The notes below the pieces were generated by a model. It saw nothing but the letters and a program-made list of their open reading frames with translations, was not told where the DNA came from and made no database searches. The position numbers and the translations under genes were made by a program. Shown piece by piece: positions 1-63,074 of a stretch of 64,000 nucleotides of DNA; positions within the stretch are counted from its first letter, which is position 1, and each line of letters begins with the position of its first letter. The DNA comes from Escherichia phage RB43: the sequence record NC_007023.1. One strand, 5' to 3'.

Positions 1-17
1 TTTCGTATCTTCTAATT

Positions 18-798: not shown

Positions 799-842
799 GA
801 TTTTCCTTTCTCTGTTTCGTTTCGATGTGTGTAATATAACAA

Positions 843-868
843 AGACCCTGCACGGATGCAAGGGCTTT
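843..868 (-). terminator. terminator-like hairpin (CCCTGCA-CGGA-TGCAAGGG)
   Basis: GC hairpin just downstream of a minus-strand stop; near-identical hairpin at 4890-4911. Confidence 0.35.
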
Positions 869-875
869 AATGAAA

Positions 876-1176
876 TTATTTCGATTCTTTTGGCAATTGT
901 TCGATAATCGATTGAGTTTGTTTAAGTTCTTCACTCAAATTATTTCGATATGTAGCAAGTTCGCGGATTCTCGCGTTCGCATATGTGATGACCCTTTCCT
1001 CAGTCACCGCATAATGATAACCACCATTAGAAGTAAGTTCCAAACGGTAATTATCCCCCGTTAGGTACTTTGATATGCTGGTACTGTAAAAATACCTTTA
1101 CTGCTTCCAGAAGATTATAGTCTTCTTTACCGATAATAAACTGGTTCGGTTCCATTTCTTCAATATCAGGATTCAT
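876..1176 (-). pseudogene. hypothetical ~100-aa protein gene needing a 1-nt frame change at a C5/G5 run (1055-1059)
   Basis: ATG at 1176 (ATGA overlap with upstream stop) gives 41 codons then TAA; downstream frame stays open to 876 with no ATG; joining restores one ORF. Confidence 0.4.
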
Positions 1177-1709
1177 TTTGTAGCCTTATACATTTCAATT
1201 ACGCGTTTCATGTGCTCTTGTGATTGAGGCACACCAGCGAAGTTCAGTTTAATAAAGAATTCAAGACGATCTTTTTTATTGCATTCATCCAGCCCCAGGG
1301 CAGGTAATGACAGGTTTTCAAAGGCGCGTTGTTCGTGTCGCTGCATATCGTCCCAGAACAGACGGGAACCATCCGGCATAGGAATCCCTATCTCACCTTC
1401 ATAAACCTTGATGATCGTCGTCAATCGTTGTTTGCCGTCGATTACTTCGACCCAGTGAGATTCGTTAAACTCGCTATCAACAGCGATCGCGATAATACCG
1501 CAAGGGAACCCAGTGATCAAAGTTGTCAAGAATTCATCTTGTTCTTTCTGCGTCCACACATAAGGGCGCTGATAGGATGGATTCAGATCCAGATCCTTAT
1601 TTTTCCACCAGTGAATATAACTTCCAACAATGATCGCATGTTCACGGCTTCTGAAAGTTATCTGTTCGCGAATCCGGTTTCTTGCCGGAATATCATCTTT
1701 ATTAGACAT
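1173..1709 (-). CDS. DUF262 / ParB-like NTPase-domain protein (GmrSD N-terminal domain family), standalone
   Basis: Motifs SYQRPYVW...LITGFPCGIIAI...VIDGKQRLTT match the DUF262 signature; no nuclease domain follows. Confidence 0.6.
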   Translation of the reverse strand: MSNKDDIPARNRIREQITFRSREHAIIVGSYIHWWKNKDLDLNPSYQRPYVWTQKEQDEFLTTLITGFPCGIIAIAVDSEFNESHWVEVIDGKQRLTTIIKVYEGEIGIPMPDGSRLFWDDMQRHEQRAFENLSLPALGLDECNKKDRLEFFIKLNFAGVPQSQEHMKRVIEMYKATK

Positions 1710-2040
1710 GTTTGACTACCCACATCAATAAACCAGCATTGATAATAGCAAAAGTAGTACAAATCGCAGCATAAACACGCGCATTATGAACGTAGGTTTT
1801 CAGTTCTGCGATCTCTTGATCCTTTTCACTTTCGAACTCTTCACGGGTTCCGTAGTAACCAGGATCAGCAGGAGTAGCAACGCGCACAGCATCTTTTTCG
1901 AATAATGTCGATTTACCATGATCAGGCCCAACAACACCCAAAATGTCACCACGGTCGGTGTTAACGATTCCGTGTGTTCCGGCTTTGGCAAATTTACAAT
2001 CTTTGATTGTGACTACACGATCGCCAGCTTTGTAATTCAT
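1702..2040 (-). CDS. hypothetical protein with C-terminal hydrophobic helix (112 aa)
   Basis: ORF; C-terminus AAICTTFAIINAGLLMWVV is hydrophobic. Confidence 0.45.
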   Translation of the reverse strand: MNYKAGDRVVTIKDCKFAKAGTHGIVNTDRGDILGVVGPDHGKSTLFEKDAVRVATPADPGYYGTREEFESEKDQEIAELKTYVHNARVYAAICTTFAIINAGLLMWVVKHV

Positions 2041-2054
2041 AATATATCCTCAAA

Positions 2055-2068
2055 GGGGCCGAAGCCCC
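2055..2068 (-). other. intergenic GC hairpin (GGGGC-CGAA-GCCCC)
   Basis: Perfect 5-bp stem between two minus-strand ORFs; weak U-tract, so attenuator or processing site rather than strong terminator. Confidence 0.3.
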
Positions 2069-2325
2069 TATTTCGCTTTCTGTTGGAGGTACTCTAACAG
2101 TTTACCTTCTTCCTGCAAAGCAGAAACTTTATTCAGCTTTGCAATGTTCTGGAAATCAGATTGATCGGAATACTCCCAAACACCATCATCAGCAATAATT
2201 GCACCTGCTGATTCTCCGGTATGTGGATTGCGAGTCAATGCCAGCCCCAGGGGATGCAGGATCTCTTTATTGATTTTCCAGAGCAACCCCATTTCAGACA
2301 GAGTATTGAAATCGACGGTTTTCAT
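2068..2325 (-). CDS. hypothetical protein (85 aa)
   Basis: ORF in co-oriented block, overlapping stop/start with neighbours. Confidence 0.45.
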   Translation of the reverse strand: MKTVDFNTLSEMGLLWKINKEILHPLGLALTRNPHTGESAGAIIADDGVWEYSDQSDFQNIAKLNKVSALQEEGKLLEYLQQKAK

Positions 2326-2708
2326 TTTGCAATAATGCCGAAAGCAAGCAAACCACCGCGATGATCGTTATCCGCACTCTCCTGGAAGAAAAAGTATTCA
2401 TCACCGGAAATACTGGTAACACGAACACCTTCTTTCAGATACGGTAACAGATACAGAGGGATCAGCATGATTTCTAAATCATCGCTCCATTTACGGAACC
2501 CCAGATTTTTCATTTCTTCCATCGTCAGGTCATTAGGATCGACGGGTTCAAAATCAGGTGATGCCTGGAGTCGTCCAGGAAGTGAACGTATATGGTTGAG
2601 AGCAAATTCTTCTCCCCATGACTGATACGCGATAGGTTCAGCGGCACGGGTTGCAGTAGCCAACAGAATCATTTGGCAGATTTGGAAAGTCGTTGCTTTT
2701 GTTTTCAT
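2322..2708 (-). CDS. hypothetical protein with hydrophobic N-terminus (128 aa)
   Basis: N-terminus MKTKATTFQICQMILLATATRAA resembles a signal peptide. Confidence 0.45.
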   Translation of the reverse strand: MKTKATTFQICQMILLATATRAAEPIAYQSWGEEFALNHIRSLPGRLQASPDFEPVDPNDLTMEEMKNLGFRKWSDDLEIMLIPLYLLPYLKEGVRVTSISGDEYFFFQESADNDHRGGLLAFGIIAK

Positions 2709-3118
2709 GATGTATATCCCACAAGTTTAGTAAGGAGGTGTCCCATAGTCTTACGCGCATGATCGCGGATTTCGCTATAAGGAACATATTTGAAACCGTC
2801 CATTTCTGTAATGGTTCGACCGTTCTTCACGAACGTTGACGCACAGAAACATTTATCGGCTTCGGGGTAATTATCGCCTTTGTAGATGAACAATGCAAGT
2901 TTTTTCTTACTTGTATAATCCAAAACACCCAGGCTGATCAGTTGGTCAGGACGCACTTCGAAACCAGTTTCTTCGAAGCATTCGCGAATAGCAGCATCAT
3001 ATGGGCTTTCACCCTTTTCTACATGCCCCTTTGGAATATCCCAGTGGGGCGTTTCGGTAGCGTGACCCATTAGAATACTGCCGTTATTCAGAAAGAGAAT
3101 ACCAGCAGATAATTCCAT
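2705..3118 (-). CDS. nudE: NUDIX hydrolase
   Basis: Nudix box GHVEKGESPYDAAIRECFEETG (Gx5Ex7REUxEExGU). Confidence 0.8.
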   Translation of the reverse strand: MELSAGILFLNNGSILMGHATETPHWDIPKGHVEKGESPYDAAIRECFEETGFEVRPDQLISLGVLDYTSKKKLALFIYKGDNYPEADKCFCASTFVKNGRTITEMDGFKYVPYSEIRDHARKTMGHLLTKLVGYTS

Positions 3119-3354
3119 TATGCGTTTCCTGAACTAAATTTCTCGTCGTATGCGGAAAGCGCATTATCTGCACGTTTTTTCGCTTCTGTATGTCCACGGC
3201 TATCATTGATACCGCGACGATACATTTCGATCCAGAAAGAACGTCGAGTATCTTCGTTCATTTCGGTCAGTTTAATATCGCGAAATACGTTTTGTTCTTT
3301 GATCAGTCGTGCCAGTTCAGCATCTTGTTCAGTTCTTGATAGTACAGTGTTCAT
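3118..3354 (-). CDS. hypothetical protein (78 aa)
   Basis: ORF in co-oriented block. Confidence 0.4.
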   Translation of the reverse strand: MNTVLSRTEQDAELARLIKEQNVFRDIKLTEMNEDTRRSFWIEMYRRGINDSRGHTEAKKRADNALSAYDEKFSSGNA

Positions 3355-3375
3355 AGTTCACCTATTTCTTTCAGT

Positions 3376-3603
3376 TCAGTTTTCAGTTTTTCGAGGAGTG
3401 GATTGGTATTGGATTTGTGAATCACTCAACCGCGCATAGAACAGAGTACGGGTTTCGTTGATTTCAGACAATACCTCTTGATCGAGTTTTTCGATACCCG
3501 CACCGAATGCCATTTGAAACAGAGTTTCAGCAGTTTGCGCGAATCCGTGTTGAAACATTCGATCGAATTTTGGTTCGTATTGTATTAAACGGACACTAGC
3601 CAT
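3376..3603 (-). CDS. hypothetical protein (about 75 aa)
   Basis: Internal ATG chosen to avoid long overlap with 3596-3889 ORF. Confidence 0.35.
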   Translation of the reverse strand: MASVRLIQYEPKFDRMFQHGFAQTAETLFQMAFGAGIEKLDQEVLSEINETRTLFYARLSDSQIQYQSTPRKTEN

Positions 3604-3889
3604 AATATTCTTCGTAATCCTCACAATCTGGGAGGTATGTTTCGCAGAACATACAGAGTGTGAAAAATGCGGTTTGGCGAATGCCTGGGTTATCCGGTAG
3701 ATACATCCAGAATGTGTTTGCAAACACAATGAACGTTTTCAGATTTTCAACGGTTACTTCGCTGATACCATCATAACCAGATTGCGCGATCGCTCGCTCC
3801 AGAGGAACAGGATATTGCTGGCAGTAGTCAGCGTAATGTTCACTCGTTACAAGGTCATTAGCGACCTTCACTAAATTGGTGATTTTCAT
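3596..3889 (-). CDS. hypothetical protein (97 aa)
   Basis: ORF in co-oriented block. Confidence 0.4.
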   Translation of the reverse strand: MKITNLVKVANDLVTSEHYADYCQQYPVPLERAIAQSGYDGISEVTVENLKTFIVFANTFWMYLPDNPGIRQTAFFTLCMFCETYLPDCEDYEEYYG

Positions 3890-4152
3890 TCAATATACCC
3901 CCAGCGAATCATAATATTATTGTCATCGGCAGGACCGTATACCGAAGGGTACGGATAAACTTCTGCTTTATAAAGATACACGATAGAATGCTTACGCATT
4001 TCATTGATAATATCGCTAAACGTACCTACTGATGTTTTTAGAGGCAGTGCCATTGGATTATCGCTGGTTTCTACTGTTGCTATCGGTCCATCAACCAGGA
4101 TAACACGAACTATCGTATGTTCGGTCAAATAAGCATATATTTTGTTTTTCAT
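3886..4152 (-). CDS. hypothetical protein (88 aa)
   Basis: ORF in co-oriented block. Confidence 0.4.
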   Translation of the reverse strand: MKNKIYAYLTEHTIVRVILVDGPIATVETSDNPMALPLKTSVGTFSDIINEMRKHSIVYLYKAEVYPYPSVYGPADDNNIMIRWGYIE

Positions 4153-4469
4153 GCTTTTACGTATTCCACTTTAACAGGTTTTGCGACAAGGCGGTCTTTG
4201 GTGTAACCTTGCCCGTTACAGATATCACACACGTACTTGATATCTTCCATTTGGTCAACCCATCCAGAATCAGGCAAGCCAGAAGGATATGTGTTAACAC
4301 GGCGCACAACATATCCCTTACTTTCGCATTTCGGGCATTTGTGGGGATATTTTGATTTCAGTTCATTGGAGATCTGACGCAGCGTTTTCTCACCGCCGAG
4401 AACGGCGCACATGTGTTCGAGATCTGGAATTCTTAAATCAGCAGCCGTAACCAGGTTGAACTTTGACAT
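4149..4469 (-). CDS. zinc-ribbon protein (about 106 aa)
   Basis: CPKC...CDIC motifs; internal ATG (MSKFNLV...) preferred over ORF-track start. Confidence 0.4.
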   Translation of the reverse strand: MSKFNLVTAADLRIPDLEHMCAVLGGEKTLRQISNELKSKYPHKCPKCESKGYVVRRVNTYPSGLPDSGWVDQMEDIKYVCDICNGQGYTKDRLVAKPVKVEYVKA

Positions 4470-4479
4470 AATATATTTC

Positions 4480-4620
4480 TCACTTAAAGAATTTTTTGAT
4501 GAAAGATAGGAACAAGCCACCACCGAACATGATCCAGTAACCAGCACCATCGCCATGAAACAAGACATAGACGGCAACACCGTAACAAAATAGTTCTGCA
4601 ATGTTCAGTAAGTTTCTCAT
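4480..4620 (-). CDS. small hydrophobic membrane peptide (46 aa)
   Basis: Strong SD AAGGAGGAAGG before ATG; MRNLLNIAELFCYGVAVYVLFHGDGAGYWIMFGGGLFLSF; below ORF-track size cut-off. Confidence 0.4.
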   Translation of the reverse strand: MRNLLNIAELFCYGVAVYVLFHGDGAGYWIMFGGGLFLSFIKKFFK

Positions 4621-4709
4621 ACCTTCCTCCTTTGTCTACACCAGGTATTTTACCAGAATATAGACCATAGTCAACAACAAAGTTTTATCAACAATACGAT
4701 CGCCTGTCA

Positions 4710-4850
4710 TTAGTAGTCTCCCATAGGTTGAGAAGATGCGACACTCAGAACTTTGAAAGTGCATTTGTTCCACTCACAATAAGTTTTTGCACAGTGAACG
4801 CTACCTTTCATAACAAACCCATTTGAGAAAATAAGCCAGTACAGTTTCAT
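4710..4850 (-). CDS. small protein (about 46 aa)
   Basis: AAAGGAG SD before ATG at 4850. Confidence 0.3.
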   Translation of the reverse strand: MKLYWLIFSNGFVMKGSVHCAKTYCEWNKCTFKVLSVASSQPMGDY

Positions 4851-4885
4851 GATTGTCTCCTTTGTTTCAACACCCCCAATATAGC

Positions 4886-4917
4886 AAAAGCCCCTGCACG
4901 AATGCAAGGGCTTTTTT
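4886..4917. terminator. rho-independent terminator (GCCCCTGCACGAATGCAAGGGGC plus T-run)
   Basis: Hairpin 4890-4911 flanked by A-run and T6; follows stop of minus-strand gene 4917-5453. Confidence 0.45.
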
Positions 4918-5453
4918 CAAATACTTTTCAACATGCGTAGTTGAGGTGGACAATCTGGGGAAGCAATCAGGCGATCCAAGCGCGACATAACGCGACGGTA
5001 GCCGTCATACTCGAACTTGATTTTAGGCGGTACATAGTTAACGTTGATTGCGTTTCTCGCGTTAATGTTCGCCTCATACTCAGGGATCACGGTGCGCAAG
5101 CGTAACGCAATCACTGGCTTTTCTTCTTCGAACAATTGGACAGTACAAACACAGGCAAACACTTTACCGTTAACGCGACGGTATGCGATAAGCTCCCGTG
5201 CTCCACCACCTTTAGTTTGTACTGCGTGATACAGAACGTTACACGAATAATGTTTTGCAAGGCTATGCAAAATGTCACGGTACAACTCAAAATCTTTTTT
5301 GATTGATGCAGAGCGATCGATAAAACGGTCTGCAATATGATCTCGCGTTGCCGATACCTTGACGGTATAGAAATCGCCCAACACCATATTAAACAAGTCG
5401 TTTACTTCTTTGCGTACATCGTTGATACGTGACATTAATCGTGTTCTGTTCAT
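4917..5453 (-). CDS. hypothetical protein (178 aa)
   Basis: ORF immediately downstream of 57B homolog. Confidence 0.5.
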   Translation of the reverse strand: MNRTRLMSRINDVRKEVNDLFNMVLGDFYTVKVSATRDHIADRFIDRSASIKKDFELYRDILHSLAKHYSCNVLYHAVQTKGGGARELIAYRRVNGKVFACVCTVQLFEEEKPVIALRLRTVIPEYEANINARNAINVNYVPPKIKFEYDGYRRVMSRLDRLIASPDCPPQLRMLKSI

Positions 5454-5456
5454 AAA

Positions 5457-6080
5457 TCACCCATTATGTTTAAAGTATTCGATCTGACGCAGACGTTTTT
5501 CTGCTGCATCTTTCGAATCATATTCACCAAGTTCTTTCGTGCGGTCCTGATTGAGTATAACCCATTTATCGCCGCGCTGTTCGATGTGCTCCGTGATATC
5601 TTCAACAGTCTTATCGAGATCCAACGATTCAGCATCTTCCTCGATAATAGTCAAATCAACAGGCAGTGTCAACAGCCTTTTCACTCCGCTGATATCTTCT
5701 ATGCGGGAATCATACGCAAGCGTAACATGCGGTTTGTAATCGTCGAAATCATACGTTGCTCCGGCATCCATCGCATCTTTGAAACGGCTATGCAGATAAT
5801 CAGACTCCAGAACACCAACGATTGTATTACCATATTTCGTGTCCCACTTTTCGACATCAACCAAACGGGCAGGTTCAGAGATACCGGACGCAGGGAACAA
5901 ATCAACCGTTTTGCGGCTATACACAATCGTTGTATGCAGTTTTGCAGCAGAAACAGGATTCTCTACACCCAGAAGTTTTTGCACCTGTGCAAGCGCTTCA
6001 CAGGAAGCCTGATCGAACTTCGCACACATATACACACCTGGATCTTTCACAGGTTTTGCAACTTCAAGAAAACTTTTCAT
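5457..6080 (-). CDS. 57B: 2H phosphoesterase, T4 gene 57B / Acb1-like
   Basis: Two H-x-T/S-x motifs (HTTIVYS, HVTLAYD); position next to 57A and gene 1 as in T4; GGAG SD before ATG. Confidence 0.6.
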   Translation of the reverse strand: MKSFLEVAKPVKDPGVYMCAKFDQASCEALAQVQKLLGVENPVSAAKLHTTIVYSRKTVDLFPASGISEPARLVDVEKWDTKYGNTIVGVLESDYLHSRFKDAMDAGATYDFDDYKPHVTLAYDSRIEDISGVKRLLTLPVDLTIIEEDAESLDLDKTVEDITEHIEQRGDKWVILNQDRTKELGEYDSKDAAEKRLRQIEYFKHNG

Positions 6081-6091
6081 GTGTACTCCAA

Positions 6092-6116
6092 ATAAAAAAG
6101 GGGCTTTCGCCCCTGA
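6092..6116 (-). terminator. rho-independent terminator (GGGGC-TTTC-GCCCC)
   Basis: Hairpin 6100-6114 followed on minus strand by U-run; between 57A and 57B. Confidence 0.5.
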
Positions 6117-6138
6117 TGGTTAAACGCCTAAGCGTTAA

Positions 6139-6420
6139 TTATGCCTTTGAGCGGTCGATCGCTTCGTCGTCTGCTTTCGCTTCATCAGCTTCTGGAAGCA
6201 GTGCTTTGATAGCACCGATCAGAGCATCAGCGGATACGCCCTGGGAACCGTCGATTTCCAACAGTTGACAAATCTGGCCTACCAGTTGGCGATGATTGGT
6301 CAGCTCTTGTTCTTTACCCTGAATGATTTCATTCAGATCGAAAACACGCGCTTTCAGGATCAGTACATCGTTTTGCAGTTGCTGGGTTTGATTTTGGGTT
6401 TGTTCAGTCATTTTATACAC
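6139..6420 (-). CDS. 57A: gp57A-like tail fibre assembly chaperone
   Basis: Small coiled-coil protein (MTEQTQNQTQQLQNDVLILKARVFDL...) beside gene 1 as in T4. Confidence 0.5.
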   Translation of the reverse strand: MYKMTEQTQNQTQQLQNDVLILKARVFDLNEIIQGKEQELTNHRQLVGQICQLLEIDGSQGVSADALIGAIKALLPEADEAKADDEAIDRSKA

Positions 6421-6422
6421 TC

Positions 6423-7085
6423 TTAAAAGTTAATTACACTAAGCACGTTAGCTTTCAATTCACTAAGCGTACCATTATTTAGGATGATAATATCAGTTGG
6501 TTGAGGGTTCAAACCTTTCTCAGTTGAATGGCTGTCATCCTCTCCGGTTTTCTCGTTCGATGAATACGAACTTAGGCCCCGAACTTGCTCAGGTATTTTA
6601 TATTCATGTTTTTGTCGAACATCCGTAATGATAAAGTTATCTTTATCGGAACGCAACATTTTCTTCAATACAATATCGACCCATACAATATCGTTATGAT
6701 TACACACGATATCAGTACCGAAAACCTGCATCAGTCGGCGTATTGTCCAGGGCTGTGTATTGGTTCTACAGATTTCATATACTGCTGTATCAACAGCACC
6801 AAGCCAATAGCCCCGCTTCTCTAACCGCTTAACCCCGAAGTCGAAGACTTTTAGTGCATCTTCGTTAGACATCAACAGGGGCGCTTCTCGATCGCCTGTA
6901 TAGAATGGGTTGGTTTTAGTCAGTTCACGCAAGTAACGGTTTCCCGATTCCTTCATCCCGTCCGACAGAATACTTTTGATCTCGTCAGCGAGCGCGAACG
7001 CTTCGACGTTTTGATAGTCATCTAAAACGAACTGGGTAGCGGTGTCTTTACCCGTTCGTTTTTTACCACAAATGCAATAAATCAT
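6423..7085 (-). CDS. 1: deoxynucleoside monophosphate kinase
   Basis: P-loop GKKRTGKDT; RRLMQVFGTD, ITDVRQKHE, NNGTLSEL match T4 gp1. Confidence 0.85.
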   Translation of the reverse strand: MIYCICGKKRTGKDTATQFVLDDYQNVEAFALADEIKSILSDGMKESGNRYLRELTKTNPFYTGDREAPLLMSNEDALKVFDFGVKRLEKRGYWLGAVDTAVYEICRTNTQPWTIRRLMQVFGTDIVCNHNDIVWVDIVLKKMLRSDKDNFIITDVRQKHEYKIPEQVRGLSSYSSNEKTGEDDSHSTEKGLNPQPTDIIILNNGTLSELKANVLSVINF

Positions 7086-7087
7086 TG

Positions 7088-7621
7088 TTATTTTTTCCGT
7101 GGAGTCGGCACGATTACCTTTCCGTCAATTTCAATCTCCATATATGCGAAGTTGAACATAGCCATACAGGAAACGGCTTCATCCGAATCATTAGTGTACA
7201 TAAGCTCAAGCTCTCCCAGGTTGGAGGGCCAAGCACCATAAAAGCGAAATGTCGCCACAGTTTTTGATTGCGAGTTATCCAGGATATGCAAAGCCATTGC
7301 CTGTTGTGATTCACTCCATCGAATAGATTCGAAGGTGTTAAAATCGACGGTTCCAAGCATCCATAGGTAAACACCAAGATAGGATCGCAATTCTTCATCA
7401 ACAGCAAACCGAATAGTTAACGGATCGAACTCCATTGCTGAACCAGGGATCTTACTACGGATCATTGGGTTCAAGGGTGCATCCGTAATCGGTATTTTGA
7501 TAGATGGTAGTGTAACACCCTGAACCTGTAGTTTCAACCCTTTCATGTAATCATTATCAGGAATGTCTAAAAGAAAGTTGGTTGGTGAAATTTGGTTCAG
7601 GATCATAGCAGTTGTATTCAT
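7088..7621 (-). CDS. 3: tail completion / sheath stabiliser protein gp3
   Basis: 177 aa; tube-like fold pattern paralogous to gp19; T4 synteny (1-3-2-4-53-5). Confidence 0.65.
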   Translation of the reverse strand: MNTTAMILNQISPTNFLLDIPDNDYMKGLKLQVQGVTLPSIKIPITDAPLNPMIRSKIPGSAMEFDPLTIRFAVDEELRSYLGVYLWMLGTVDFNTFESIRWSESQQAMALHILDNSQSKTVATFRFYGAWPSNLGELELMYTNDSDEAVSCMAMFNFAYMEIEIDGKVIVPTPRKK

Positions 7622-7661
7622 AACATGATCTCCGTTTATAGATATTTATAACCAAGACCGT

Positions 7662-7829
7662 GAGCGAAGCGAACACACGAACGAAGTGAGTGTTTGGTAA
7701 CTCAACTACAGAACTACATAATTATATTTTAATATTTTATATATAGAGAAAAATGTAGTTTTTGGTATACTTTTTGTACAGATGTTAACTATCCGTCTTC
7801 GCTTCGCTTGACGGAACTCGCTTCGCTCG
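7662..7829. repeat. dyad-symmetric intergenic element, copy A
   Basis: Arms GAGCGAAGCGAA...CGAACGAAGTGAGTG / CTCGCTTCGCTCG around a 57-bp core (7712-7768) identical to 42423-42479; core is itself palindromic (AACTACAT...ATGTAGTT). Confidence 0.75.
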
Positions 7830-7903
7830 TAACCTTGAAAAAGTTATTGATCAATTCAATAAATAGGTATATCATACCCATACTTTCAAAAGAGATTGAA
7901 AAC

Positions 7904-8512
7904 ATGAAATCATTCAAAGAACTTATTTCTGAATCTGTTCAGAACAAAAAATTTGCAAAGACAGTTGATCTGGTTGACCGTGGTAATGCTTCAAAAGGTC
8001 AGATCGGTTTCTTACACTTCGCACATGGTGCTGACTACGATGTGTATGCTCCTGATTCTCACGATCTGGCTTACTTCGGTAAAGGCGTTGTTCGTTTGAA
8101 AGGTAAAACCACTGGCAAAACTCAGGCTGCTTATGTTGACTGGGCGAAAGGCACGGTTTCATTCTACAGCGGTGATCCTGCTGATGACCTGAAATTTGAC
8201 AAGCCAGCAAAATTCAAAGGTGCTTCCCTGTACAAAGAAGCGGAAGAGAACATTGATCTGTATAACCAGTTAGCGGAAGATTTCGAAATCGATCTTCCTC
8301 TGGATGAAGCGCTGGTGAAAGGCGGGATCTATAAACTGCCGAGTAACGATATGCACTTGCTGTATACCGGACGCACCAAAACCAAACCAACTGGGGAATA
8401 TGCGGTATTCACTGTTGTTGATGCTTCTGGTAAACCTCGTCTGGTATCCGGCGCACGATTCACCCAGGAATACAAAGGCGACGTAGTAGCCAAACTGGAA
8501 AAAGTCAAATAA
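7904..8512 (+). CDS. internal-protein-like protein with capsid targeting sequence (about 203 aa)
   Basis: N-terminus MKSFKELISE matches T4 CTS consensus MKTYQEFIAE; + gene inside minus-strand block; ATG at 7904 preferred over ORF-track start 7808. Confidence 0.6.
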   Translation: MKSFKELISESVQNKKFAKTVDLVDRGNASKGQIGFLHFAHGADYDVYAPDSHDLAYFGKGVVRLKGKTTGKTQAAYVDWAKGTVSFYSGDPADDLKFDKPAKFKGASLYKEAEENIDLYNQLAEDFEIDLPLDEALVKGGIYKLPSNDMHLLYTGRTKTKPTGEYAVFTVVDASGKPRLVSGARFTQEYKGDVVAKLEKVK

Positions 8513-8516
8513 AAAT

Positions 8517-8547
8517 AAAGCCCCTTCCTTTCGGTTGGGGCTTTTTG
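8517..8547. terminator. bidirectional rho-independent terminator
   Basis: AAAGCCCCTTCCTTTCGGTTGGGGCTTTTT; identical hairpin at 43536-43557. Confidence 0.6.
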
Positions 8548-9402
8548 TTAATATCTGTTCCAGACTTTTTTTGCCGAGAACGGTTTTCCTTTCGACACAA
8601 ACGCCTGTGTAGGCAACCAGACAGCTTTAGCCCAATCTTTCGGGGCTATTTCTGCAAGTGGTGAACGCAAATGGGCTGGTAGGTAGACTTTGATCATTTG
8701 ATCAGCCCCGCGCATTCCTTTTACGTTGTTCCAGTTGATTTTCAATCTGGTTTTGTTTGAAAGGCGATCCGTAGATCCGTAACCGCGTTTCAAGAGTTCT
8801 TCTAAGAATTCCTGTCGTGCTTTCGGTGGCGCATAGTGCAAGTTCAATCCATATAGAACCACGTTACCCGCTTTAGAACGTCCTGAACCCAGGAAGATGA
8901 TTAGCGGGAACCGATCCCAGTACGGTAGGGTGTCTTTATACTTCGCGTCATACACGAACGTATACAGGCGACCTGTTGCTGGTTTCGCTACCCTGTGCGT
9001 CTTGATACTGGTTTTGATGAAGTCACCAAACCATTCAGTCGATTCTTTCTGACGTTTCGCAGCGGGAACACCAACTGTAATTTTCCTTAAACTGTTTCGG
9101 AAATCGTTGATGATGTCAACCGTATGTTTTTTGCGATAGTCGTTACGTTTTCGTCGGGCTTCGGTTTCTGCCGTGCGTCGTGCGATTTCGTCATCAATTT
9201 GCTGTTTGTAACGGTGCATCGACTTCGTGAACGTCGCATATGCAATTCCGTTATCGTCTGCGAATTTTTTGGCTGTCATGCCTTTTAATTTTGCGCGTCG
9301 GAATTTAATACCAATCTCAACCCATTCCCCCAGCTTTCGCTTCGGTGGCGGTTTTGGCTTATCTTCTTCTGCGATGATCTCGAATTCAAATATAAAGCTC
9401 AT
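8548..9402 (-). CDS. 2: DNA end protector protein gp2
   Basis: 284 aa, basic; position between gp3 and gp4 as in T4. Confidence 0.6.
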   Translation of the reverse strand: MSFIFEFEIIAEEDKPKPPPKRKLGEWVEIGIKFRRAKLKGMTAKKFADDNGIAYATFTKSMHRYKQQIDDEIARRTAETEARRKRNDYRKKHTVDIINDFRNSLRKITVGVPAAKRQKESTEWFGDFIKTSIKTHRVAKPATGRLYTFVYDAKYKDTLPYWDRFPLIIFLGSGRSKAGNVVLYGLNLHYAPPKARQEFLEELLKRGYGSTDRLSNKTRLKINWNNVKGMRGADQMIKVYLPAHLRSPLAEIAPKDWAKAVWLPTQAFVSKGKPFSAKKVWNRY

Positions 9403-9423
9403 AATTCCCTCCGTTTAGGGTAT

Positions 9424-9891
9424 TTATTGCCCTTTCCATCCGAACACACGTTTTAACGTATCTTCTGTGATGATTTTAAATTCCCAGCCCTTTTGCTTCG
9501 CTGCTGTGTTCGCTGCTTTCCATTTGTCAATGTTCACTGCATAAGTATACAGGGCATCGACAAATTTCTTTTTGTTGTGAACATTATTGTTCGCTGGTTT
9601 AGGCGGGGGCAATGTTTCTTTCATTGGCTTGACTTCCCATAGGTAAGTAACGCCATTATCCATTTCAACATAAAAATCCATGAAGTAACGCCGTCTTTTA
9701 CCGTCTGCGTTGCTGAAATATGGGATCACTACCTCTTCACTGTTCCAGCGTTTTACATGCGGGTTTCTATCAAGCCAGTTCATGATGTATTTTTCCCAGC
9801 TTGAACGATACGTTATCTTTCGCGGATCGCCTTTATATTTTGATATGTTCTGGGGCATAAAAGACCCCTTGTACGTCTGTCTTCCAGCCAT
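9424..9891 (-). CDS. 4: head completion protein gp4
   Basis: 155 aa; MAGRQTYKGSFMPQNISKYKGDP...SEEVVIPY resembles T4 gp4; synteny. Confidence 0.65.
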   Translation of the reverse strand: MAGRQTYKGSFMPQNISKYKGDPRKITYRSSWEKYIMNWLDRNPHVKRWNSEEVVIPYFSNADGKRRRYFMDFYVEMDNGVTYLWEVKPMKETLPPPKPANNNVHNKKKFVDALYTYAVNIDKWKAANTAAKQKGWEFKIITEDTLKRVFGWKGQ

Positions 9892-9935
9892 TATAGATCC
9901 TAAATATAGTAAACATTAGATAGGGGAAATTACAA

Positions 9936-10490
9936 ATGTTATTTTCGTTCTTTCCACCAGTTGATTACAACGGTACACCAACTACTGATATCTTTCGTGA
10001 TTATCGTTTTTACTTTAATCGTGTGATCAGGAATTATAAGCCGCGTACATATCAACTGACAGGTTCATTAAGACCTGAACAATTAGCTGAAACGCTATAC
10101 GGAAACCAACAATATTATTGGGTTATCCTGATGCTCAATGACAACTATGACCCGTTTTATGGTTGGATCACAGATCAGGAAACAGCTTATCAATGCGCTG
10201 TTCAACGTTATTCAAAAGTAGGTGGTGAGCAGGTTCTTTATCACATGGATGGGAAAAACAACCGATATTACAATCTGGTTGAAGATCCTAACAACCCTGG
10301 TCATTGGTATGACAAAGGTGATAAAGACATGCGTTATTTGCAGTATCAGGGAACATTAGTCCCTATTGATATTTATGAAGACGCAGTGTTGAAAAATGAA
10401 TCAATGCGAACCATTAAGATTATTAACCCTTCGGATATTCAATCGTTTGTAAGCGATTATATCAAGGAAATGGAAAAGGCAAACACATGA
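9936..10490 (+). CDS. 53: baseplate wedge protein gp53
   Basis: MLFSFFPP...TDIFRDY...NDNYDPFYGWIT...WYDKGDK...IKII matches T4 gp53. Confidence 0.85.
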   Translation: MLFSFFPPVDYNGTPTTDIFRDYRFYFNRVIRNYKPRTYQLTGSLRPEQLAETLYGNQQYYWVILMLNDNYDPFYGWITDQETAYQCAVQRYSKVGGEQVLYHMDGKNNRYYNLVEDPNNPGHWYDKGDKDMRYLQYQGTLVPIDIYEDAVLKNESMRTIKIINPSDIQSFVSDYIKEMEKANT

Positions 10491-27481: not shown

Positions 27482-27503
27482 AAGGGGCGCAAGCCCCTTT
27501 TGA
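27482..27503 (+). terminator. rho-independent terminator (GGGGCGCAAGCCCC plus T4)
   Basis: Hairpin after wac stop; same hairpin at 63675-63688. Confidence 0.5.
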
Positions 27504-40944: not shown

Positions 40945-40957
40945 TCGACTTTACACT

Positions 40958-40990
40958 AAAAGGCAACCTACGGGTTGCCTTTTTTGTTTG
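40958..40990 (+). terminator. rho-independent terminator (GGCAACC-TACG-GGTTGCC plus T-run)
   Basis: Perfect 7-bp stem and TTTTTTGTTT after gp23 stop. Confidence 0.7.
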
Positions 40991-42360: not shown

Positions 42361-42384
42361 TAATAAAGATCAACAAGGTCAAAT

Positions 42385-42543
42385 GAGCGAAGCGAATTTT
42401 CACGAACGAAGTGAGTGATAGGAACTACATAATTATATTTTAATATTTTATATATAGAGAAAAATGTAGTTTTTGGTATGGTTTTTAACCAGATGTAAAC
42501 TAACATTCACTCACTACGTTCGTTCATGTACTCGCTTCGCTCG
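42385..42543. repeat. dyad-symmetric intergenic element, copy B
   Basis: Same arms and identical 57-bp core (42423-42479) as copy A; arms form an imperfect ~34-bp inverted repeat. Confidence 0.75.
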
Positions 42544-42548
42544 TAAAT

Positions 42549-42576
42549 TTGACTTCTTGATCATAGTGGTTATAAT
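42549..42576 (+). promoter_or_regulatory. sigma70-like promoter (TTGACT-16-TATAAT) upstream of uvsY
   Basis: -35 TTGACT 42549-42554, -10 TATAAT 42571-42576. Confidence 0.4.
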
Positions 42577-43532: not shown

Positions 43533-43566
43533 AAAGCCCCTTCCTTTCGGTTGGGGCTTCTTTTTT
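43533..43566. terminator. bidirectional rho-independent terminator
   Basis: AAAGCCCCTTCCTTTCGGTTGGGGCTTCTTTTTT; hairpin identical to 8520-8541. Confidence 0.6.
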
Positions 43567-45375: not shown

Positions 45376-46296
45376 ATGAAAATTGATTACGAATTGGTAG
45401 AAGGGTTCCGTGCTCTGCCTACTAAAGAACAGAAAGGCGCACTGGCTGACTACGCTCAAAGCACCTTTGAAGTAAAATTGAACAAACAAAAATCATTCGA
45501 TAACATGCTGGCTGATCTGGAAGCTGCTGTACCAGCGGAAGAAGAAAAACCGGAACTGCTGATTGATTCCCCAGAATCCGCGATCGTTTCGTACACTGGT
45601 AGCGTTGCAATGGATGAACCTGTTGTTAACGCTCCGAACATTCCTGATGTTGTTGTCGATGTGTCGCAGGACTTTATGGATTACGTCAAAGACGTTGCGC
45701 CGGAAGTGGCTGATCAGATTAAATTAGTCCCTGATGTTGTTGTCGATGTGTCGCAGGACTTTATGGATTACGTCAAAGACGTTGCGCCGGAAGTGGCTGA
45801 TCAGATTAAATTAGTCCCTGATGTTGTTGTCGATGTGTCGCAGGACTTTATGGATTACGTCAAAGACGTTGCGCCGGAAGTGGCTGATCAGATTAAATTA
45901 GTCCCTGATGTTGTTGTCGATGTGTCGCAGGACTTTATGGATTACGTCAAAGACGTTGCGCCGGAAGTGGCTGATCAGATTAAATTAGTCCCTGATGTTG
46001 TAGAAGCGTCTGTAACCGCTTCTGACGAGTCCAAAGCTGATATGGCATGGTTGGACGGGTTTAGCCCTACAATCGTTCTGATGGGGCGTAGCGCTCGTTC
46101 TAACGGCTATTATACGTGTCCCTGGTGGATCTACGATTGGATTAAGAAAAATCCAGATTGGTACAAAGATCCTGACCAGTGTCCACACTACAGCGCACGG
46201 GATACCCTGAAATCGCTGGTGTACTACATCAAACGTGATGGTCAAGTTACTGTGCGTGAAACGCGCAACAGCAGTTTCGATACCTTCAAATTTTAG
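45376..46296 (+). CDS. hypothetical protein with 4 identical 29-aa repeats and C-terminal PWWIYD domain
   Basis: 306-aa ORF; repeat PDVVVDVSQDFMDYVKDVAPEVADQIKLV x4; C-terminal YYTCPWWIYDWIKKNPDWY. Confidence 0.6.
   Translation: MKIDYELVEGFRALPTKEQKGALADYAQSTFEVKLNKQKSFDNMLADLEAAVPAEEEKPELLIDSPESAIVSYTGSVAMDEPVVNAPNIPDVVVDVSQDFMDYVKDVAPEVADQIKLVPDVVVDVSQDFMDYVKDVAPEVADQIKLVPDVVVDVSQDFMDYVKDVAPEVADQIKLVPDVVVDVSQDFMDYVKDVAPEVADQIKLVPDVVEASVTASDESKADMAWLDGFSPTIVLMGRSARSNGYYTCPWWIYDWIKKNPDWYKDPDQCPHYSARDTLKSLVYYIKRDGQVTVRETRNSSFDTFKF
45643..45990 (+). repeat. perfect tandem repeat, 4 x 87 bp (plus 11-bp partial fifth unit)
   Basis: Units at 45643, 45730, 45817, 45904 identical by eye; in-frame inside CDS. 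Confidence 0.9.
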
Positions 46297-59409: not shown

Positions 59410-61532
59410 TGCTTGTAGAAAAACGCGACGGCAAAACCGTTGATTTTGATAAAGAAAAAATCCGTATTGCTGTAGAAAAAGCTGGCGGGACTATGACGGA
59501 TGCTGATGCCGCAATCATGCTGGTTCAGTACAATCAGATCCGCGATGGTAGCGCAATGAAGATCGCCCGTATCCAGGAACTCGTTGAAGAATCCCTGATG
59601 AAAACGAACCCAGCGGTCGCCCGTGCATACATCGAATATCGTCACGATCGCGATATTGCCCGTGAACAGAAAAGTAAGCTGTTCAAAGATATCTCCGGTA
59701 TGGTGAATCTGTCCAACAAAGAGATCACCAACGAGAACGCGAACAAACACGCAAGGGTATTCCCGACACAGCGCAATTTGCTGGCGGGTATTGTAGCGAA
59801 GCATTTCGCCCGTAATCATATCCTTCCGAAACATATCGTAGAAGCGCATGACTCCGGCGACATCCACTATCATGATCTGGATTACAGCCCGTTCACGCCA
59901 TACACAAACTGCTGTCTGGTGGATTTGAAAGGTATGCTGGCTAATGGCTTCAAGATGGGTAACGCAGACATCGAACCCCCGAAATCAATCGGTGTTGCGA
60001 CTGCTCTTATGGCACAGATCACCGCACAGATTGCTTCTCACCAGTACGGCGGGACAACCTTTGCAAACGTGGATAAAGTGCTGGCTCCGTATGCAGAAAT
60101 GACATATGAAAAGCATGTTAAGGATGCTAAAAAGTATAAAATTTCGTTAGATCGTACATATGCGATGGAAAAGACTGAAAAAGATGTGTTTGATGCTTTC
60201 CAATCGTATGAATACGAAGTTAACACGCTGCATACTGCCAACGGACAAACACCTTTCGTTACTATTACTTTCGGTACTGGTACGGGAATGTTTGAACGGA
60301 TGATCCAGAAAGCTATTCTGAAAAACCGTATCCGTGGCCTGGGTAAAAAAGGTATTACTCCGGTATTCCCTAAACTGGTTATGTTCATGGAAAAAGGCAT
60401 TAACCTTGATCCAGAGGATCGCAACTATGACATCAAACAACTGGCTCTGGAATGCGCTTCAAAACGTATGTACCCAGATATCATTAGTGCATATAATAAC
60501 CGTCGCATCACTGGTTCTAGCGTTCCTGTATCTCCTATGGGTTGTCGCAGTTTCCTTAGTGTGTGGCATGATGATAACGGTAATGAAGTTCTGGATGGAC
60601 GTAATAACCTGGGTGTGGTGACAATCAACCTCCCGCGTATTGCTCTTGAAGCACAATCGCAGGAAGATGAAGACGCACATGACGCATTCTGGCGTATCCT
60701 TGATGAACGTCTGGAACTGTGCTTTGAAGCCCTGATGACTCGCATCGATAGCCTACGCGGTGTTAAAGCCAGTGTAGCCCCGATCCTGTACACGGAAGGT
60801 GCATTCGGTGTTCGTCTGAATCCTGATGATGAAATCCTGGAACTGTTCAAAAATGGGCGTAGCTCTATCAGTCTGGGTTATATCGGATTGCATGAAACGC
60901 TGTTAATGTTCGGCTCCGGTCAACATCCGTTCGATCGTATTGGCTCTCAAAATGTGGGTAAACTGATTCTGGAATATCTACGCGCCGCGACCGAGGCATG
61001 GAAAAAGAAAACTGGATTTGGTTTCAGTCTGTATTCAACCCCTGCCGAATCTCTCTGCCATCGCTTCTGTAAGCTGGACTTTGAGAAGTTCGGGAGTGTG
61101 AAAGGGATCACGGATAAAGGCTGGTACACAAACAGTTTCCATCTGGACGTAGACCGCACAGTGACACCGTTCGAGAAAATCGACTATGAAGCCGATTATC
61201 ATTACATTGCATCTGCTGGTCATATCAGTTATGTCGAATTCCCTGATATGAAAAACAACCTGCAAGCCCTGGAAAAAGTCTGGGATTATGCAATGGAAAA
61301 ACTGGACTATTTCGGAACTAACCTTCCGGTCGATAAGTGCTTTGAATGTGGTGCTGATGATGAATTCACTCCTACAGAAGACGGTTTCCACTGTAAACAT
61401 TGTGGTAATCACGATCCGGCAAAAATGAGCGTTACACGCCGTACATGCGGTTATCTGGGTGCTCCTGCTGTCCGTGGTTTCAACGAAGGTAAGAACAAAG
61501 AAATGATGCACCGCACTAAGCATCAAAATTAA
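59409..61532 (+). CDS. nrdD: anaerobic ribonucleoside-triphosphate reductase
   Basis: ATP-cone N-terminus, C-terminal CxxC pairs and glycyl-radical motif RRTCGYLG; uninterrupted. Confidence 0.9.
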   Translation: MLVEKRDGKTVDFDKEKIRIAVEKAGGTMTDADAAIMLVQYNQIRDGSAMKIARIQELVEESLMKTNPAVARAYIEYRHDRDIAREQKSKLFKDISGMVNLSNKEITNENANKHARVFPTQRNLLAGIVAKHFARNHILPKHIVEAHDSGDIHYHDLDYSPFTPYTNCCLVDLKGMLANGFKMGNADIEPPKSIGVATALMAQITAQIASHQYGGTTFANVDKVLAPYAEMTYEKHVKDAKKYKISLDRTYAMEKTEKDVFDAFQSYEYEVNTLHTANGQTPFVTITFGTGTGMFERMIQKAILKNRIRGLGKKGITPVFPKLVMFMEKGINLDPEDRNYDIKQLALECASKRMYPDIISAYNNRRITGSSVPVSPMGCRSFLSVWHDDNGNEVLDGRNNLGVVTINLPRIALEAQSQEDEDAHDAFWRILDERLELCFEALMTRIDSLRGVKASVAPILYTEGAFGVRLNPDDEILELFKNGRSSISLGYIGLHETLLMFGSGQHPFDRIGSQNVGKLILEYLRAATEAWKKKTGFGFSLYSTPAESLCHRFCKLDFEKFGSVKGITDKGWYTNSFHLDVDRTVTPFEKIDYEADYHYIASAGHISYVEFPDMKNNLQALEKVWDYAMEKLDYFGTNLPVDKCFECGADDEFTPTEDGFHCKHCGNHDPAKMSVTRRTCGYLGAPAVRGFNEGKNKEMMHRTKHQN

Positions 61533-61539
61533 TCAAAAA

Positions 61540-61568
61540 GCCCCTTGCGAAAGTGAGGGGCTTTTGTT
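61540..61568 (+). terminator. rho-independent terminator
   Basis: GCCCCT...AGGGGC hairpin plus TTTTGTT after nrdD. Confidence 0.6.
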
Positions 61569-61603
61569 ATATTACACATACCGAAACGATGGAGGATGAA
61601 AAG

Positions 61604-63070: not shown

Positions 63071-63074
63071 TCAC

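What the first reader, a model, noticed from the sequence alone, without database searches (positions are those of the whole stretch)
27484..27497. Reused terminator hairpins at distant loci
GGGGCGCAAGCCCC plus T-run occurs after wac and again at 63675-63688. CCCTGCACG(G/A)ATGCAAGGG occurs at 846-864 and 4891-4910. With the 8520/43536 pair, that makes three terminator families each present twice, suggesting short regulatory cassettes spread by recombination.
Basis: seen in the sequence. Interest (0 to 1): 0.25.

Follow-up and report, generated by a model that had tools for sequence, protein, structure and literature searches.

The report
Reused transcription terminator hairpins in phage RB43
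The repeated hairpins are real but ordinary: they are the transcription stop signals (some doubling as early promoters) of the T4-like phage RB43, and they look alike mainly because this phage builds its terminators from a very small set of stems and loops.

Summary
The window is phage RB43 (GenBank AY967407 coordinates minus 96000). All three hairpin pairs are present as described and sit at gene boundaries. Five of the six were already predicted as rho-independent terminators in the 2006 RB43 genome paper.

The three "families" have different explanations.
- **GGGGC-GCAA-GCCCC pair:** coincidence within a small vocabulary. Ten RB43 sites share this stem, with loops UUCG x4, GAAA x2, GCAA x2 and two others. 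Relatives carry GAAA at the second site, so the identity rests on one base change.
- **846/4892 pair:** these work on the minus strand and belong to a family of about 14 composite terminator/early-promoter cassettes. This is the PeSL class (promoter-early stem-loop, PeSL) already described in other T4-like phages. Here the recombination idea has support.
- **8517/43533 pair:** a bidirectional terminator at convergent gene junctions. It includes the known conserved terminator next to uvsW.1 and is invariant in all relatives examined.

The one unexplained point is that this last hairpin, with its 2x2 U·U/A·A internal loop, is far more conserved than neighbouring terminators. It also recurs in unrelated phages.

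The parts
27484..27497 (+). C1: GGGGC-GCAA-GCCCC hairpin plus UUUU. It lies 9 nt after the wac stop codon and 14 nt before the gene 13 start. Intrinsic terminator or attenuator.
   Evidence: -14.2 kcal/mol. TransTerm 'wac-->13' at 123484-123497 in Nolan 2006. Annotated as a terminator in phage Miller.
63675..63688 (+). C2: the same 14-mer plus UUUUU, after gene e.6 in the variable nrdD-nrdG region.
   Evidence: TransTerm 'e.6-->RB43ORF267w' at 159675-159688. Miller and Lw1 orthologues have a GAAA loop.
6100..6113 (-). C3: GGGGC-GAAA-GCCCC plus U-run, at the 57B / RB43ORF197c boundary on the minus strand. RB16 and Lw1 have a UUCG loop on the same stem.
   Evidence: TransTerm site at 102100-102113.
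2055..2068 (-). Another member of the same stem class: GGGGC-UUCG-GCCCC plus UUU.
   Evidence: TransTerm site at 98055-98068.
825..875 (-). A1: PeSL-type cassette. The hairpin at 846-864 reads CCUUGCA-UCCG-UGCAGGG on the minus strand. A -35-like CTTGCA lies in the 5' arm, followed by a 17-nt spacer and TGtTATATT at 833-842. The ATG is 50 nt after the hairpin.
   Evidence: Early promoter Pe:96875 at 96825-96875 in Nolan 2006. The hairpin differs in every relative and homology breaks here.
4870..4921 (-). A2: PeSL-type cassette. The hairpin at 4890-4911 reads GCCCUUGCA-UUCG-UGCAGGGGC, followed by TGcTATATT at 4878-4887. The ATG is 39 nt after the hairpin.
   Evidence: -20.2 kcal/mol. TransTerm site at 100890-100911 and early promoter Pe:100921 overlap here. 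Annotated as a terminator in Miller.
61530..61580 (+). Third PeSL-type cassette in the window, after nrdD. GCCCCUUGC-GAAA-GUGAGGGGC at 61540-61561, followed by TGtTATATT. An RB43-only 77-aa ORF is inserted directly after its leader.
   Evidence: TransTerm site at 157540-157561 and early promoter Pe:157530.
8517..8543 (.). B1: bidirectional terminator, AAA-GCCCC-UU-CC-UUUC-GG-UU-GGGGC-UUU. It lies between ORF200w (+) and gene 2 (-).
   Evidence: -16.9 and -16.4 kcal/mol on the two strands. TransTerm bidirectional site at 104520-104541. Annotated on both strands in Miller. Identical in four phages.
43533..43559 (.). B2: the same 27-mer, between the uvsY/uvsY.-2 unit (+) and uvsW.1 (-). This is the bidirectional terminator conserved across T4-like phages.
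   Evidence: TransTerm site at 139536-139557. Noted in the text of Nolan 2006. Architecture conserved in T2, JS98, STP4-a and Roth19.
7655..7860 (+). R_a: a repeated, inverted-repeat-flanked element of about 190 nt holding a predicted late promoter. It lies upstream of ORF200w, the unit that ends at B1.
   Evidence: Late promoter Pl:103713 in Nolan 2006.
42384..42552 (+). R_b: second copy of the R element, between gene 24 and uvsY. The unit it heads ends at B2.

Best explanation
These are the transcription stop signals of phage RB43. They are short G/C stems capped by very stable four-base loops (GNRA or UNCG type) and followed by a U-run, placed just after stop codons. RB43 builds nearly all of them from two stems (GGGGC/GCCCC and GCCCC/GGGGC) and a few loops, so exact repeats of 14-20 nt are expected without any transfer. 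That accounts for the wac/e.6 pair.

The 846/4892 pair works on the minus strand. It belongs to a family of about 14 composite cassettes. In each, the terminator hairpin of one early gene carries the -35 region of the next early promoter, which is completed by a TGnTATATT -10 element and a conserved leader. This is the PeSL class. Its members share about 100 nt, and recombination or indels occur beside them.

The 8517/43533 pair is a two-way terminator (A-run, hairpin, T-run) at junctions where genes converge. One copy is the ancient uvsW.1 terminator. The other copies probably arose when rightward transcription units were moved or inserted during rearrangement of the Pseudotevenvirus genome.

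Shown here: sequence, position, folding, conservation and overlap with published predictions. Inferred: actual termination and promoter activity, and how the copies arose.
For: **Identity and position**
- The window is RB43.
- Hairpins with a T-run are about 50 times denser in intergenic DNA than in coding DNA.
- All hairpins fold stably, with z-scores from -2.6 to -5.3.
- TransTerm terminators published in 2006 coincide with five of the six sites and with the 6100 site.
- The Miller record annotates terminators at five of the six orthologous sites.

**Small vocabulary**
- GGGGC-N4-GCCCC occurs at 10 sites, with loops ttcg x4, gaaa x2, gcaa x2, gtaa and tttt. Eight of the 45 possible pairs are identical.
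- The GCCCC-gaaa/tttc-GGGGC duplex occurs at 5 sites.
- Among relatives, loops change while stems are kept: GCAA/GAAA at C2, GAAA/UUCG at window 6100, GAAA/UACG at genome 142050. The gene 23 terminator shows a compensatory stem change.

**PeSL family**
- Fifteen candidate sites were aligned, about 14 of them convincing. The convincing ones have a stop codon 5-21 nt upstream (101 nt at one site), an A-run, a stem containing CTTGC, a 17-18 nt spacer, TGnTATATT and an ATG 39-50 nt downstream.
- Published HMM early promoters overlap A1, A2 and the nrdD cassette.
- The PeSL concept and its association with indels are described in PMC2839356 and PMC4122927.
- Nine of 62 homology breakpoints lie within 40 nt of one of 15 hairpin sites, against 1.2 expected at random.
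- An RB43-only ORF is inserted directly after a PeSL leader.

**Hairpin B**
- Both copies lie at convergent junctions and fold equally well on both strands.
- The uvsW.1 bidirectional terminator was already reported as conserved in T4 and five other genomes.
- A third copy in Lw1, CfP1 and a 174-kb KP15-like phage lies at the gene 25 convergent junction.
Against: - No transcript data were available, so termination and promoter activity are predictions.
- The tool's sigma-70 scan does not flag the PeSL promoters, because CTTGCA matches TTGACA at only 3 of 6 positions.
- The strong preference for two stems out of 32 possible G/C-only 5-bp stems could itself reflect copying or gene conversion rather than selection. 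Whole-loop swaps such as GAAA to UUCG at window 6100 are more easily explained by templated exchange than by four point changes.
- The breakpoint enrichment is confounded, because indel ends naturally fall between genes, where hairpins sit. The three relatives are also not independent.
- Generic terminator function does not explain why hairpin B is invariant, including its mismatches, while neighbouring terminators vary.
Confidence: 0.75

Rival explanations
1. All three families are short mobile regulatory cassettes copied between loci by recombination or gene conversion.
For: - T4-like phages recombine intensely, and PeSL-mediated shuffling is documented in relatives.
- Stems are concentrated in two types.
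- Whole-loop swaps occur on a constant stem at window 6100 and genome 142050.
- The gene 25 site carries the long B hairpin in Lw1, CfP1 and a KP15-like phage, but the short GCCCC-TTTC-GGGGC form in RB43.
- Homology breakpoints cluster at hairpins.
Against: - For the C and B pairs, similarity ends exactly at the functional A/T runs, with no flanking homology or target duplication.
- C2 differs from its orthologues by a single loop base.
- The B 22-mer also occurs in phiEco32-like phages, in unknown viral contigs and in bacterial assemblies, including an Ekhidna chromosome and a Shiella scaffold. Transfer from RB43-like phages to these is implausible.
Confidence: 0.2
2. Hairpin B is not just a terminator. 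It is a sequence-specific element, such as a protein or RNase recognition site or a recombination/unit-boundary signal, and its 2x2 internal loop is functionally required.
For: - It is invariant over 22-27 nt at both loci in four phages whose flanks are 81-95% identical, while other terminators vary.
- The AA-CC-loop-GG-AA core is kept in T2, JS98 and Roth19, and STP4-a has GA in place of the first AA. The outer stem differs between genera (GGCCC/GGGCC or GCCCC/GGGGC) but stays paired.
- Perfectly paired analogues give 0 and 1 IMG/VR loci, against 32 for the mismatch form.
- It occurs in bacterial genomes at 8 loci (two of them on one phage-derived contig), against about 0.07 expected.
- Each of the three R promoter elements heads a rightward unit that ends in a B-type hairpin.
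Against: - Karamvirus, Aeromonas phages 25 and 65 and Cronobacter phage S13 have unrelated perfect hairpins at the same junction.
- RB43 itself replaced the third copy with a short perfect hairpin.
- Most of the 32 loci are related T4-like phages, so the counts are inflated by common descent.
- Tandem U·U mismatches cost little stability, so the form may simply be a neutral, easily reached design.
- No candidate binding partner was identified.
Confidence: 0.15
3. The repeats are chance matches with no function.
For: None beyond the short length of the 14-mer.
Against: - Zero matches in 100 shuffles for each motif.
- All copies are intergenic and lie next to stop codons.
- The sites are conserved in relatives.
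Confidence: 0.01

Closest known systems
Intrinsic (rho-independent) terminators of T4-like phages, as predicted for RB43 by Nolan et al. 2006 (PMC1524935)
   Same: G/C stem, stable tetraloop and U-run after stop codons. Five of the six hairpins, plus the 6100 site, have the same coordinates as published TransTerm predictions. The uvsW.1 bidirectional terminator was singled out there as conserved in T4 and five other genomes.
   Different: In the text and supplement read, that paper lists coordinates only. It does not note that identical sequences recur, nor that early promoters and terminators overlap at the same sites.
PeSLs (promoter-early stem-loops) of RB49/phi1, T4/PST and KVP40/nt-1 (Arbiol 2010, PMC2839356; Comeau 2014, PMC4122927)
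   Same: - Composite cassette made of an A/T-rich region, a stem-loop, a sigma-70-like promoter, a Shine-Dalgarno sequence and a start codon.
- G-run/C-run stems.
- A stem-loop that overlaps the -35/spacer region.
- Many copies, conserved over about 100 nt.
- Location among small ORFs of unknown function and next to indels.
   Different: - The RB43 set has its own consensus: CTTGCA in the stem and a TGnTATATT extended -10 element.
- In the two PeSL papers read, RB43 is mentioned only in passing, for the gene 43 locus.
- Mini-circle formation and reporter activity were not tested here.
UUCG and GNRA stable tetraloop hairpins, first noticed in T4 mRNA (reviewed in PMC4371310)
   Same: The loops used are UUCG, UCCG and UACG (UNCG class) and GCAA, GAAA and GUAA (GNRA class).
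   Different: The only addition is genome-specific usage statistics.
Moron-like promoter-gene-terminator units of lambdoid phages
   Same: ORF200w is a single rightward gene set among leftward genes. It has its own upstream promoter element (R) and its own terminator (B1).
   Different: - The ORF is conserved across the genus, and no compositional anomaly was tested.
- Nolan 2006 argued that most novel ORFs of T4-like phages are not moron-like.

Membership tests
Intrinsic terminator | G/C-rich stem-loop that is stable on the transcribed strand | tested here: met
   -12.6 to -20.2 kcal/mol, with z-scores from -2.6 to -5.3. Family A pairs fully only on the minus strand, where a G·U pair becomes a C·A mismatch on the plus strand.
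Intrinsic terminator | U-run immediately 3' of the stem | tested here: met
   The run is 4-6 T in most cases. It is weaker at C1 (TTTT) and A1 (TCTTTGTT).
Intrinsic terminator | Located just downstream of a stop codon, in the sense orientation | tested here: met
   Hairpins lie 5-21 nt after stop codons, and all exact copies are intergenic.
Intrinsic terminator | Transcripts actually end there | not testable with these tools
   Needs Term-seq, 3' RACE or a reporter assay.
Bidirectional terminator (B1, B2) | A-run, hairpin and T-run at a convergent gene junction, stable on both strands | tested here: met
   (-16.9/-16.4 and -17.5/-18.2 kcal/mol). TransTerm strand '.'.
PeSL (family A) | Sigma-70-like early promoter with 17 +/- 1 spacing | tested here: inconclusive
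   CTTGCA, a 17-18 nt spacer and TGnTATATT are present, and published HMM promoters overlap the sites. The generic consensus scan does not call them, because the -35 matches at only 3 of 6 positions.
PeSL (family A) | Stem-loop adjacent to or overlapping the promoter, preceded by an A/T-rich tract and followed by a Shine-Dalgarno sequence and start codon | tested here: met
   The ATG lies 39-50 nt after the hairpin in 13 of 15 aligned sites.
PeSL (family A) | Multiple dispersed copies conserved over about 100 nt | tested here: met
   about 14 copies. Subsets share the upstream ATAGCACTTTTTGTTAAAGAA and the leader ACACACATCGAAACGAAACAGACAAAAGGAA.
PeSL (family A) | Association with indels or replacements between close relatives | tested here: met
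   (the A1 junction and the ORF262w insertion). Confounded by intergenic location.
PeSL (family A) | Recombination between copies that yields mini-circles | not testable with these tools
   Needs inverse PCR on infected cells or virions, as in PMC2839356.
Mobile repeat (MITE/REP-like) for families B and C | Homology extending beyond the functional hairpin, terminal repeats or target-site duplication | tested here: not met
   Similarity ends at the A/T runs.

The most novel reading that the evidence does not exclude
The 22-nt hairpin GCCCC-UU-CC-UUUC-GG-UU-GGGGC (A·A version on the other strand) is a sequence-specific boundary element rather than a generic terminator. Its 2x2 internal loop is under selection across T4-like genera, it recurs in unrelated phages, and in Pseudotevenvirus it is paired with the triplicated R promoter element to delimit rightward transcription units.
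Probability: 0.15. Interest if true: 0.5.

Novelty: new member of a known kind. Interest (0 to 1): 0.22.

Why it matters
The main value is as a calibration case. Exact reuse of 14-27 nt hairpins in a phage genome need not mean mobile cassettes, because terminators are drawn from a tiny design space.

The analysis adds a catalogue of about 14 PeSL-type terminator/promoter cassettes for RB43. This extends a known mechanism of modular gene shuffling to the genus Pseudotevenvirus.

The unusually rigid conservation of the uvsW.1-type bidirectional hairpin, and the triplicated R element, are small leads. Either could be tested with standard transcript mapping.

Tried and rejected
- **Rfam:** a scan of the whole window at gathering thresholds gave no family.
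- **Generic promoter/terminator scan:** on window 1-10000 it found the 6100 and 846 hairpins but not the PeSL promoters. Its totals were not above shuffles, so it is uninformative for enrichment. I used my own genome-wide scan instead.
- **Degenerate IMG/VR pattern:** About half of the sampled hits were terminator-like.
- **PHROG search of flanking genes:** every match was to a family of unknown function. It did show that ORF200w is C-terminally truncated in RB43, and that the 99-aa gene upstream of A1 resembles the C-terminal part of a 304-position PHROG profile.
- **Microhomology at the ORF262w insertion:** there is a 9-nt GTTATATTA repeat, but Miller retains the leader, so it does not explain the junction.
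- **T4 genome review (PMC150520):** not held in the library.
- **Window ORF coordinates:** several failed to translate, because the window differs from HE981739 by small indels.
- **Rejected readings:** chance, and a MITE-like mobile repeat for families B and C.

Full report
**Identity of the window.** The region 24000-32000 matches phage RB43 (Pseudotevenvirus, a T4-like myovirus) at 100%. The whole window aligns to HE981739.1 95598-159337 at 99.9%, with small indels. Published RB43 coordinates show that the window is AY967407 minus 96000: the TransTerm site 'wac-->13' at 123484-123497 is window 27484-27497, and 'e.6-->ORF267w' at 159675-159688 is window 63675-63688. I loaded three things:
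- the complete RB43 genome;
- the window-equivalent regions of Miller, RB16 and Lw1;
- short uvsW.1 regions from eight more distant T4-like phages.

**Observation.** Shuffles give zero expected matches.
- GGGGCGCAAGCCCC has a one-mismatch relative at 6100-6113 on the minus strand.
- The 8520/43536 pair is identical over 27 nt.
- Genome-wide, the three motifs have seven exact copies, all intergenic. This includes a third copy of the 846/4892 motif outside the window.
- A scan for G/C stems followed by a T-run finds 66 strand-specific hits in the 4.8% of the genome that is intergenic and 25 in the coding 95.2%.

Enrichment at gene boundaries is therefore strong.

**Prior knowledge.**
- Nolan et al. 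2006 (PMC1524935) predicted 45 terminators in RB43. Five of the six hairpins, plus the 6100 site, are on that list with the same coordinates. B1 and B2 are marked there as bidirectional.
- The same paper calls the bidirectional terminator downstream of uvsW.1 a striking example conserved in T4 and five other genomes.
- The Miller GenBank record annotates terminators at five of the six orthologous sites.

**Family C (27484 and 63675).**
- The stem GGGGC/GCCCC with a four-base loop occurs at ten RB43 sites. On the sense strand the loops are UUCG x4, GAAA x2, GCAA x2, GUAA and UUUU, so 8 of the 45 possible pairs are identical 14-mers.
- The mirror design, GCCCC-GAAA/UUUC-GGGGC, occurs at five sites.
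- Similarity between the two GCAA copies ends at AAGGGGCGCAAGCCCCTTTT, which is the functional unit.
- At the second site, Miller and Lw1 have GAAA, so the RB43 identity with the wac terminator rests on one A-to-C change inside a GNRA loop. RB16 lacks the locus.
- Other orthologous terminators behave the same way. Loops move among stable classes: GAAA/UUCG at window 6100 and GAAA/UACG at genome 142050. Stems are kept or change compensatorily, as at the gene 23 terminator in RB16.
- UUCG and GNRA loops are the classic extra-stable tetraloops, and UUCG was first noticed in T4 mRNA.

I conclude that this pair is a coincidence within a narrow vocabulary. Short-patch conversion between same-stem terminators cannot be excluded, and it would most easily explain the whole-loop swaps.

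**Family A (846 and 4892).**
- Both sites lie between co-directional minus-strand genes.
GCCCUUGCA-UUCG-UGCAGGGGC pairs fully with one G·U pair (-20.2 kcal/mol).
- Aligning 15 such sites genome-wide (about 14 are convincing) shows a fixed layout:
  - a stop codon 5-21 nt upstream (101 nt at one site);
  - an A-run;
  - a stem containing CTTGC(A);
  - a 17-18 nt spacer;
  - TGnTATATT;
  - an ATG 39-50 nt after the hairpin.
- Subsets also share an upstream block (ATAGCACTTTTTGTTAAAGAA) and a leader (ACACACATCGAAACGAAACAGACAAAAGGAA).
- Nolan's HMM early promoters Pe:96875, Pe:100921 and Pe:157530 fall exactly on A1, A2 and a third in-window cassette at 61540-61561. At the latter two sites they overlap TransTerm terminators.
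- This is the PeSL architecture of Arbiol 2010 and Comeau 2014. PeSLs are composite promoter/terminator cassettes with G-run/C-run stems, often lying between the -35 and -10 elements. They are conserved over about 100 nt and are associated with ORF indels.
- RB43 is mentioned in those papers only in passing.
- The generic sigma-70 scan does not flag these promoters, because the -35 matches TTGACA at only 3 of 6 positions. Promoter activity therefore remains a prediction.

**Evidence for plasticity at these sites.**
- At A1 the hairpin differs in each relative. RB16 has GCCCTTGTA-ttac-TGTAAGGGC, and Miller and Lw1 have GCCTCTTGC-aat-GCAGGGGC, while the downstream promoter and leader are conserved.
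- Nucleotide homology to Miller and Lw1 ends at the A1 hairpin. The upstream gene is 99 aa in RB43 and 319 aa in Miller and Lw1.
- After the nrdD cassette, RB43 alone carries a 77-aa ORF inserted directly behind the leader.
- Overall, 9 of 62 homology breakpoints lie within 40 nt of one of 15 hairpin sites, against 1.2 expected for random positions. This test is confounded by intergenic location and by the relatedness of the three comparators.

**Family B (8517 and 43533).**
- Both copies sit at convergent junctions: ORF200w(+)|gene 2(-) and uvsY.-2(+)|uvsW.1(-). Both fold equally well on either strand, as GCCCC-UU-CC-UUUC-GG-UU-GGGGC or GCCCC-AA-CC-GAAA-GG-AA-GGGGC.
- The 27-mer is identical at both loci in RB43, Miller, RB16 and Lw1, although flanks are 81-95% identical. 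On the upstream side homology stops right at the hairpin.
- The exact 22-mer is found in 32 IMG/VR loci. It occurs three times per genome in Lw1, CfP1 and a 174-kb KP15-like phage. The third copy is at the gene 25 convergent junction, where RB43 has the short form GCCCC-TTTC-GGGGC.
- It also lies at the uvsW.1 site of 167-172-kb T4-like phages, at a convergent junction in phiEco32-like podoviruses, and in several unknown viral contigs.
- In 596 Gb of bacterial and archaeal genomes it occurs at eight loci, against about 0.07 expected. Two of these are a Pseudotevenvirus contig in a Flagellimonas assembly. Others include an Ekhidna chromosome and a Shiella scaffold.
- At the uvsW.1 junction the internal-loop architecture is kept in several genera. 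T2 has GGCCC-AA-CC-aaaaa-GG-AA-GGGCC, JS98 has GGCCC-AA-CC-tttc-GG-AA-GGGCC, STP4-a has GCCCC-GA-CC-acaa-GG-AA-GGGGC, and Roth19 is identical to B.
- It is not kept in Karamvirus, Aeromonas phages 25 and 65, or Cronobacter phage S13.
- The perfectly paired analogues give 0 and 1 IMG/VR loci.

The terminator reading is solid, and a duplication tied to rearrangement is plausible. In T4, uvsY follows gene 25 in one unit (my own knowledge). In RB43 that unit is split, and both ends carry a B-type hairpin in relatives. The rigid conservation of all 22 positions, mismatches included, is not explained by generic termination.

**Side observation.** A roughly 190-nt element, R, with long inverted-repeat arms and an invariant A/T-rich core occurs exactly three times in each of 62 Pseudotevenvirus records. 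None of the listed copies is annotated as a feature.
- It overlaps Nolan's late promoters Pl:103713 and Pl:32617.
- Each copy heads a rightward unit that ends in a B-type hairpin. R at 32.2 kb leads to the gene 25 junction, R at window 7655-7860 leads to B1, and R at 42384-42552 leads to B2. This fits the idea of reused promoter and terminator modules bounding units.

**Verdict.**
- Nothing here departs from known kinds of elements.
- The RB43 PeSL catalogue, the invariance of B and the R element are modest additions.

Noticed in passing
window 7655-7860 and 42384-42552; also HE981739 32163-32340 (L001): A triplicated element, R, of about 190 nt. It has an invariant core (GAACTACATAATTATATTTTAATATTTTATATATAGAGAAAAATGTAGTTTTTGGTATG) inside long inverted-repeat arms (TGAGCGAAGCGAA... 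/ ...CTCGCTTCGCTCG). It occurs exactly three times per genome in 62 Pseudotevenvirus records and is not annotated as a feature in any listed record. It overlaps published late-promoter predictions, has no Rfam match, and folds at -48 to -62 kcal/mol. It could be a late-promoter cassette, a replication origin (T4 oriF lies at uvsY) or a structured RNA.
   Followed up: partly
window 45730-45914: A tandem repeat with a period of about 87 bp. The window carries extra repeat copies relative to isolate HE981739, as shown by overlapping 98-bp self-hits.
   Followed up: no
window 63074-63667, about 876-1175, and elsewhere: The window differs from HE981739 by about 23 small indels. Several ORFs that are intact in HE981739, such as e.6 (197 aa), are frameshifted or split in the window sequence. 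These are either sequencing errors in the older record or real isolate differences.
   Followed up: no
window 57019-57041: A PeSL-like hairpin, GCCCCTTGT-tgctc-GCAAGGGGC plus TTTTTT. It lies inside annotated coding sequence, where the nicotinamide phosphoribosyltransferase gene and the next ORF overlap. The downstream ORF start may be mis-annotated.
   Followed up: no
window about 7904-8512 (ORF200w): This rightward ORF, set between leftward genes 3 and 2, is 202 aa in RB43 but 261-263 aa in Miller, RB16 and Lw1. The deletion of roughly 180 nt ends at the left edge of hairpin B1. The protein matches phrog_7322, of unknown function.
   Followed up: partly
L167 and L171 (NZ_JBHSCL010000010.1, Flagellimonas marina, 178,077-bp contig): A contig in a marine Bacteroidota genome assembly carries both the B1 and B2 contexts of a Pseudotevenvirus and has the size of a whole phage genome. 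It is probably phage contamination of the assembly.
   Followed up: no
window 40954-40971 (HE981739 136550-136567; gene 23 terminator) and L007 41774-42412: RB16 has a homing-endonuclease gene inserted about 30 nt downstream of the gene 23 terminator. Its terminator also shows a compensatory stem change and a UACG-to-UUCG loop change relative to RB43.
   Followed up: partly
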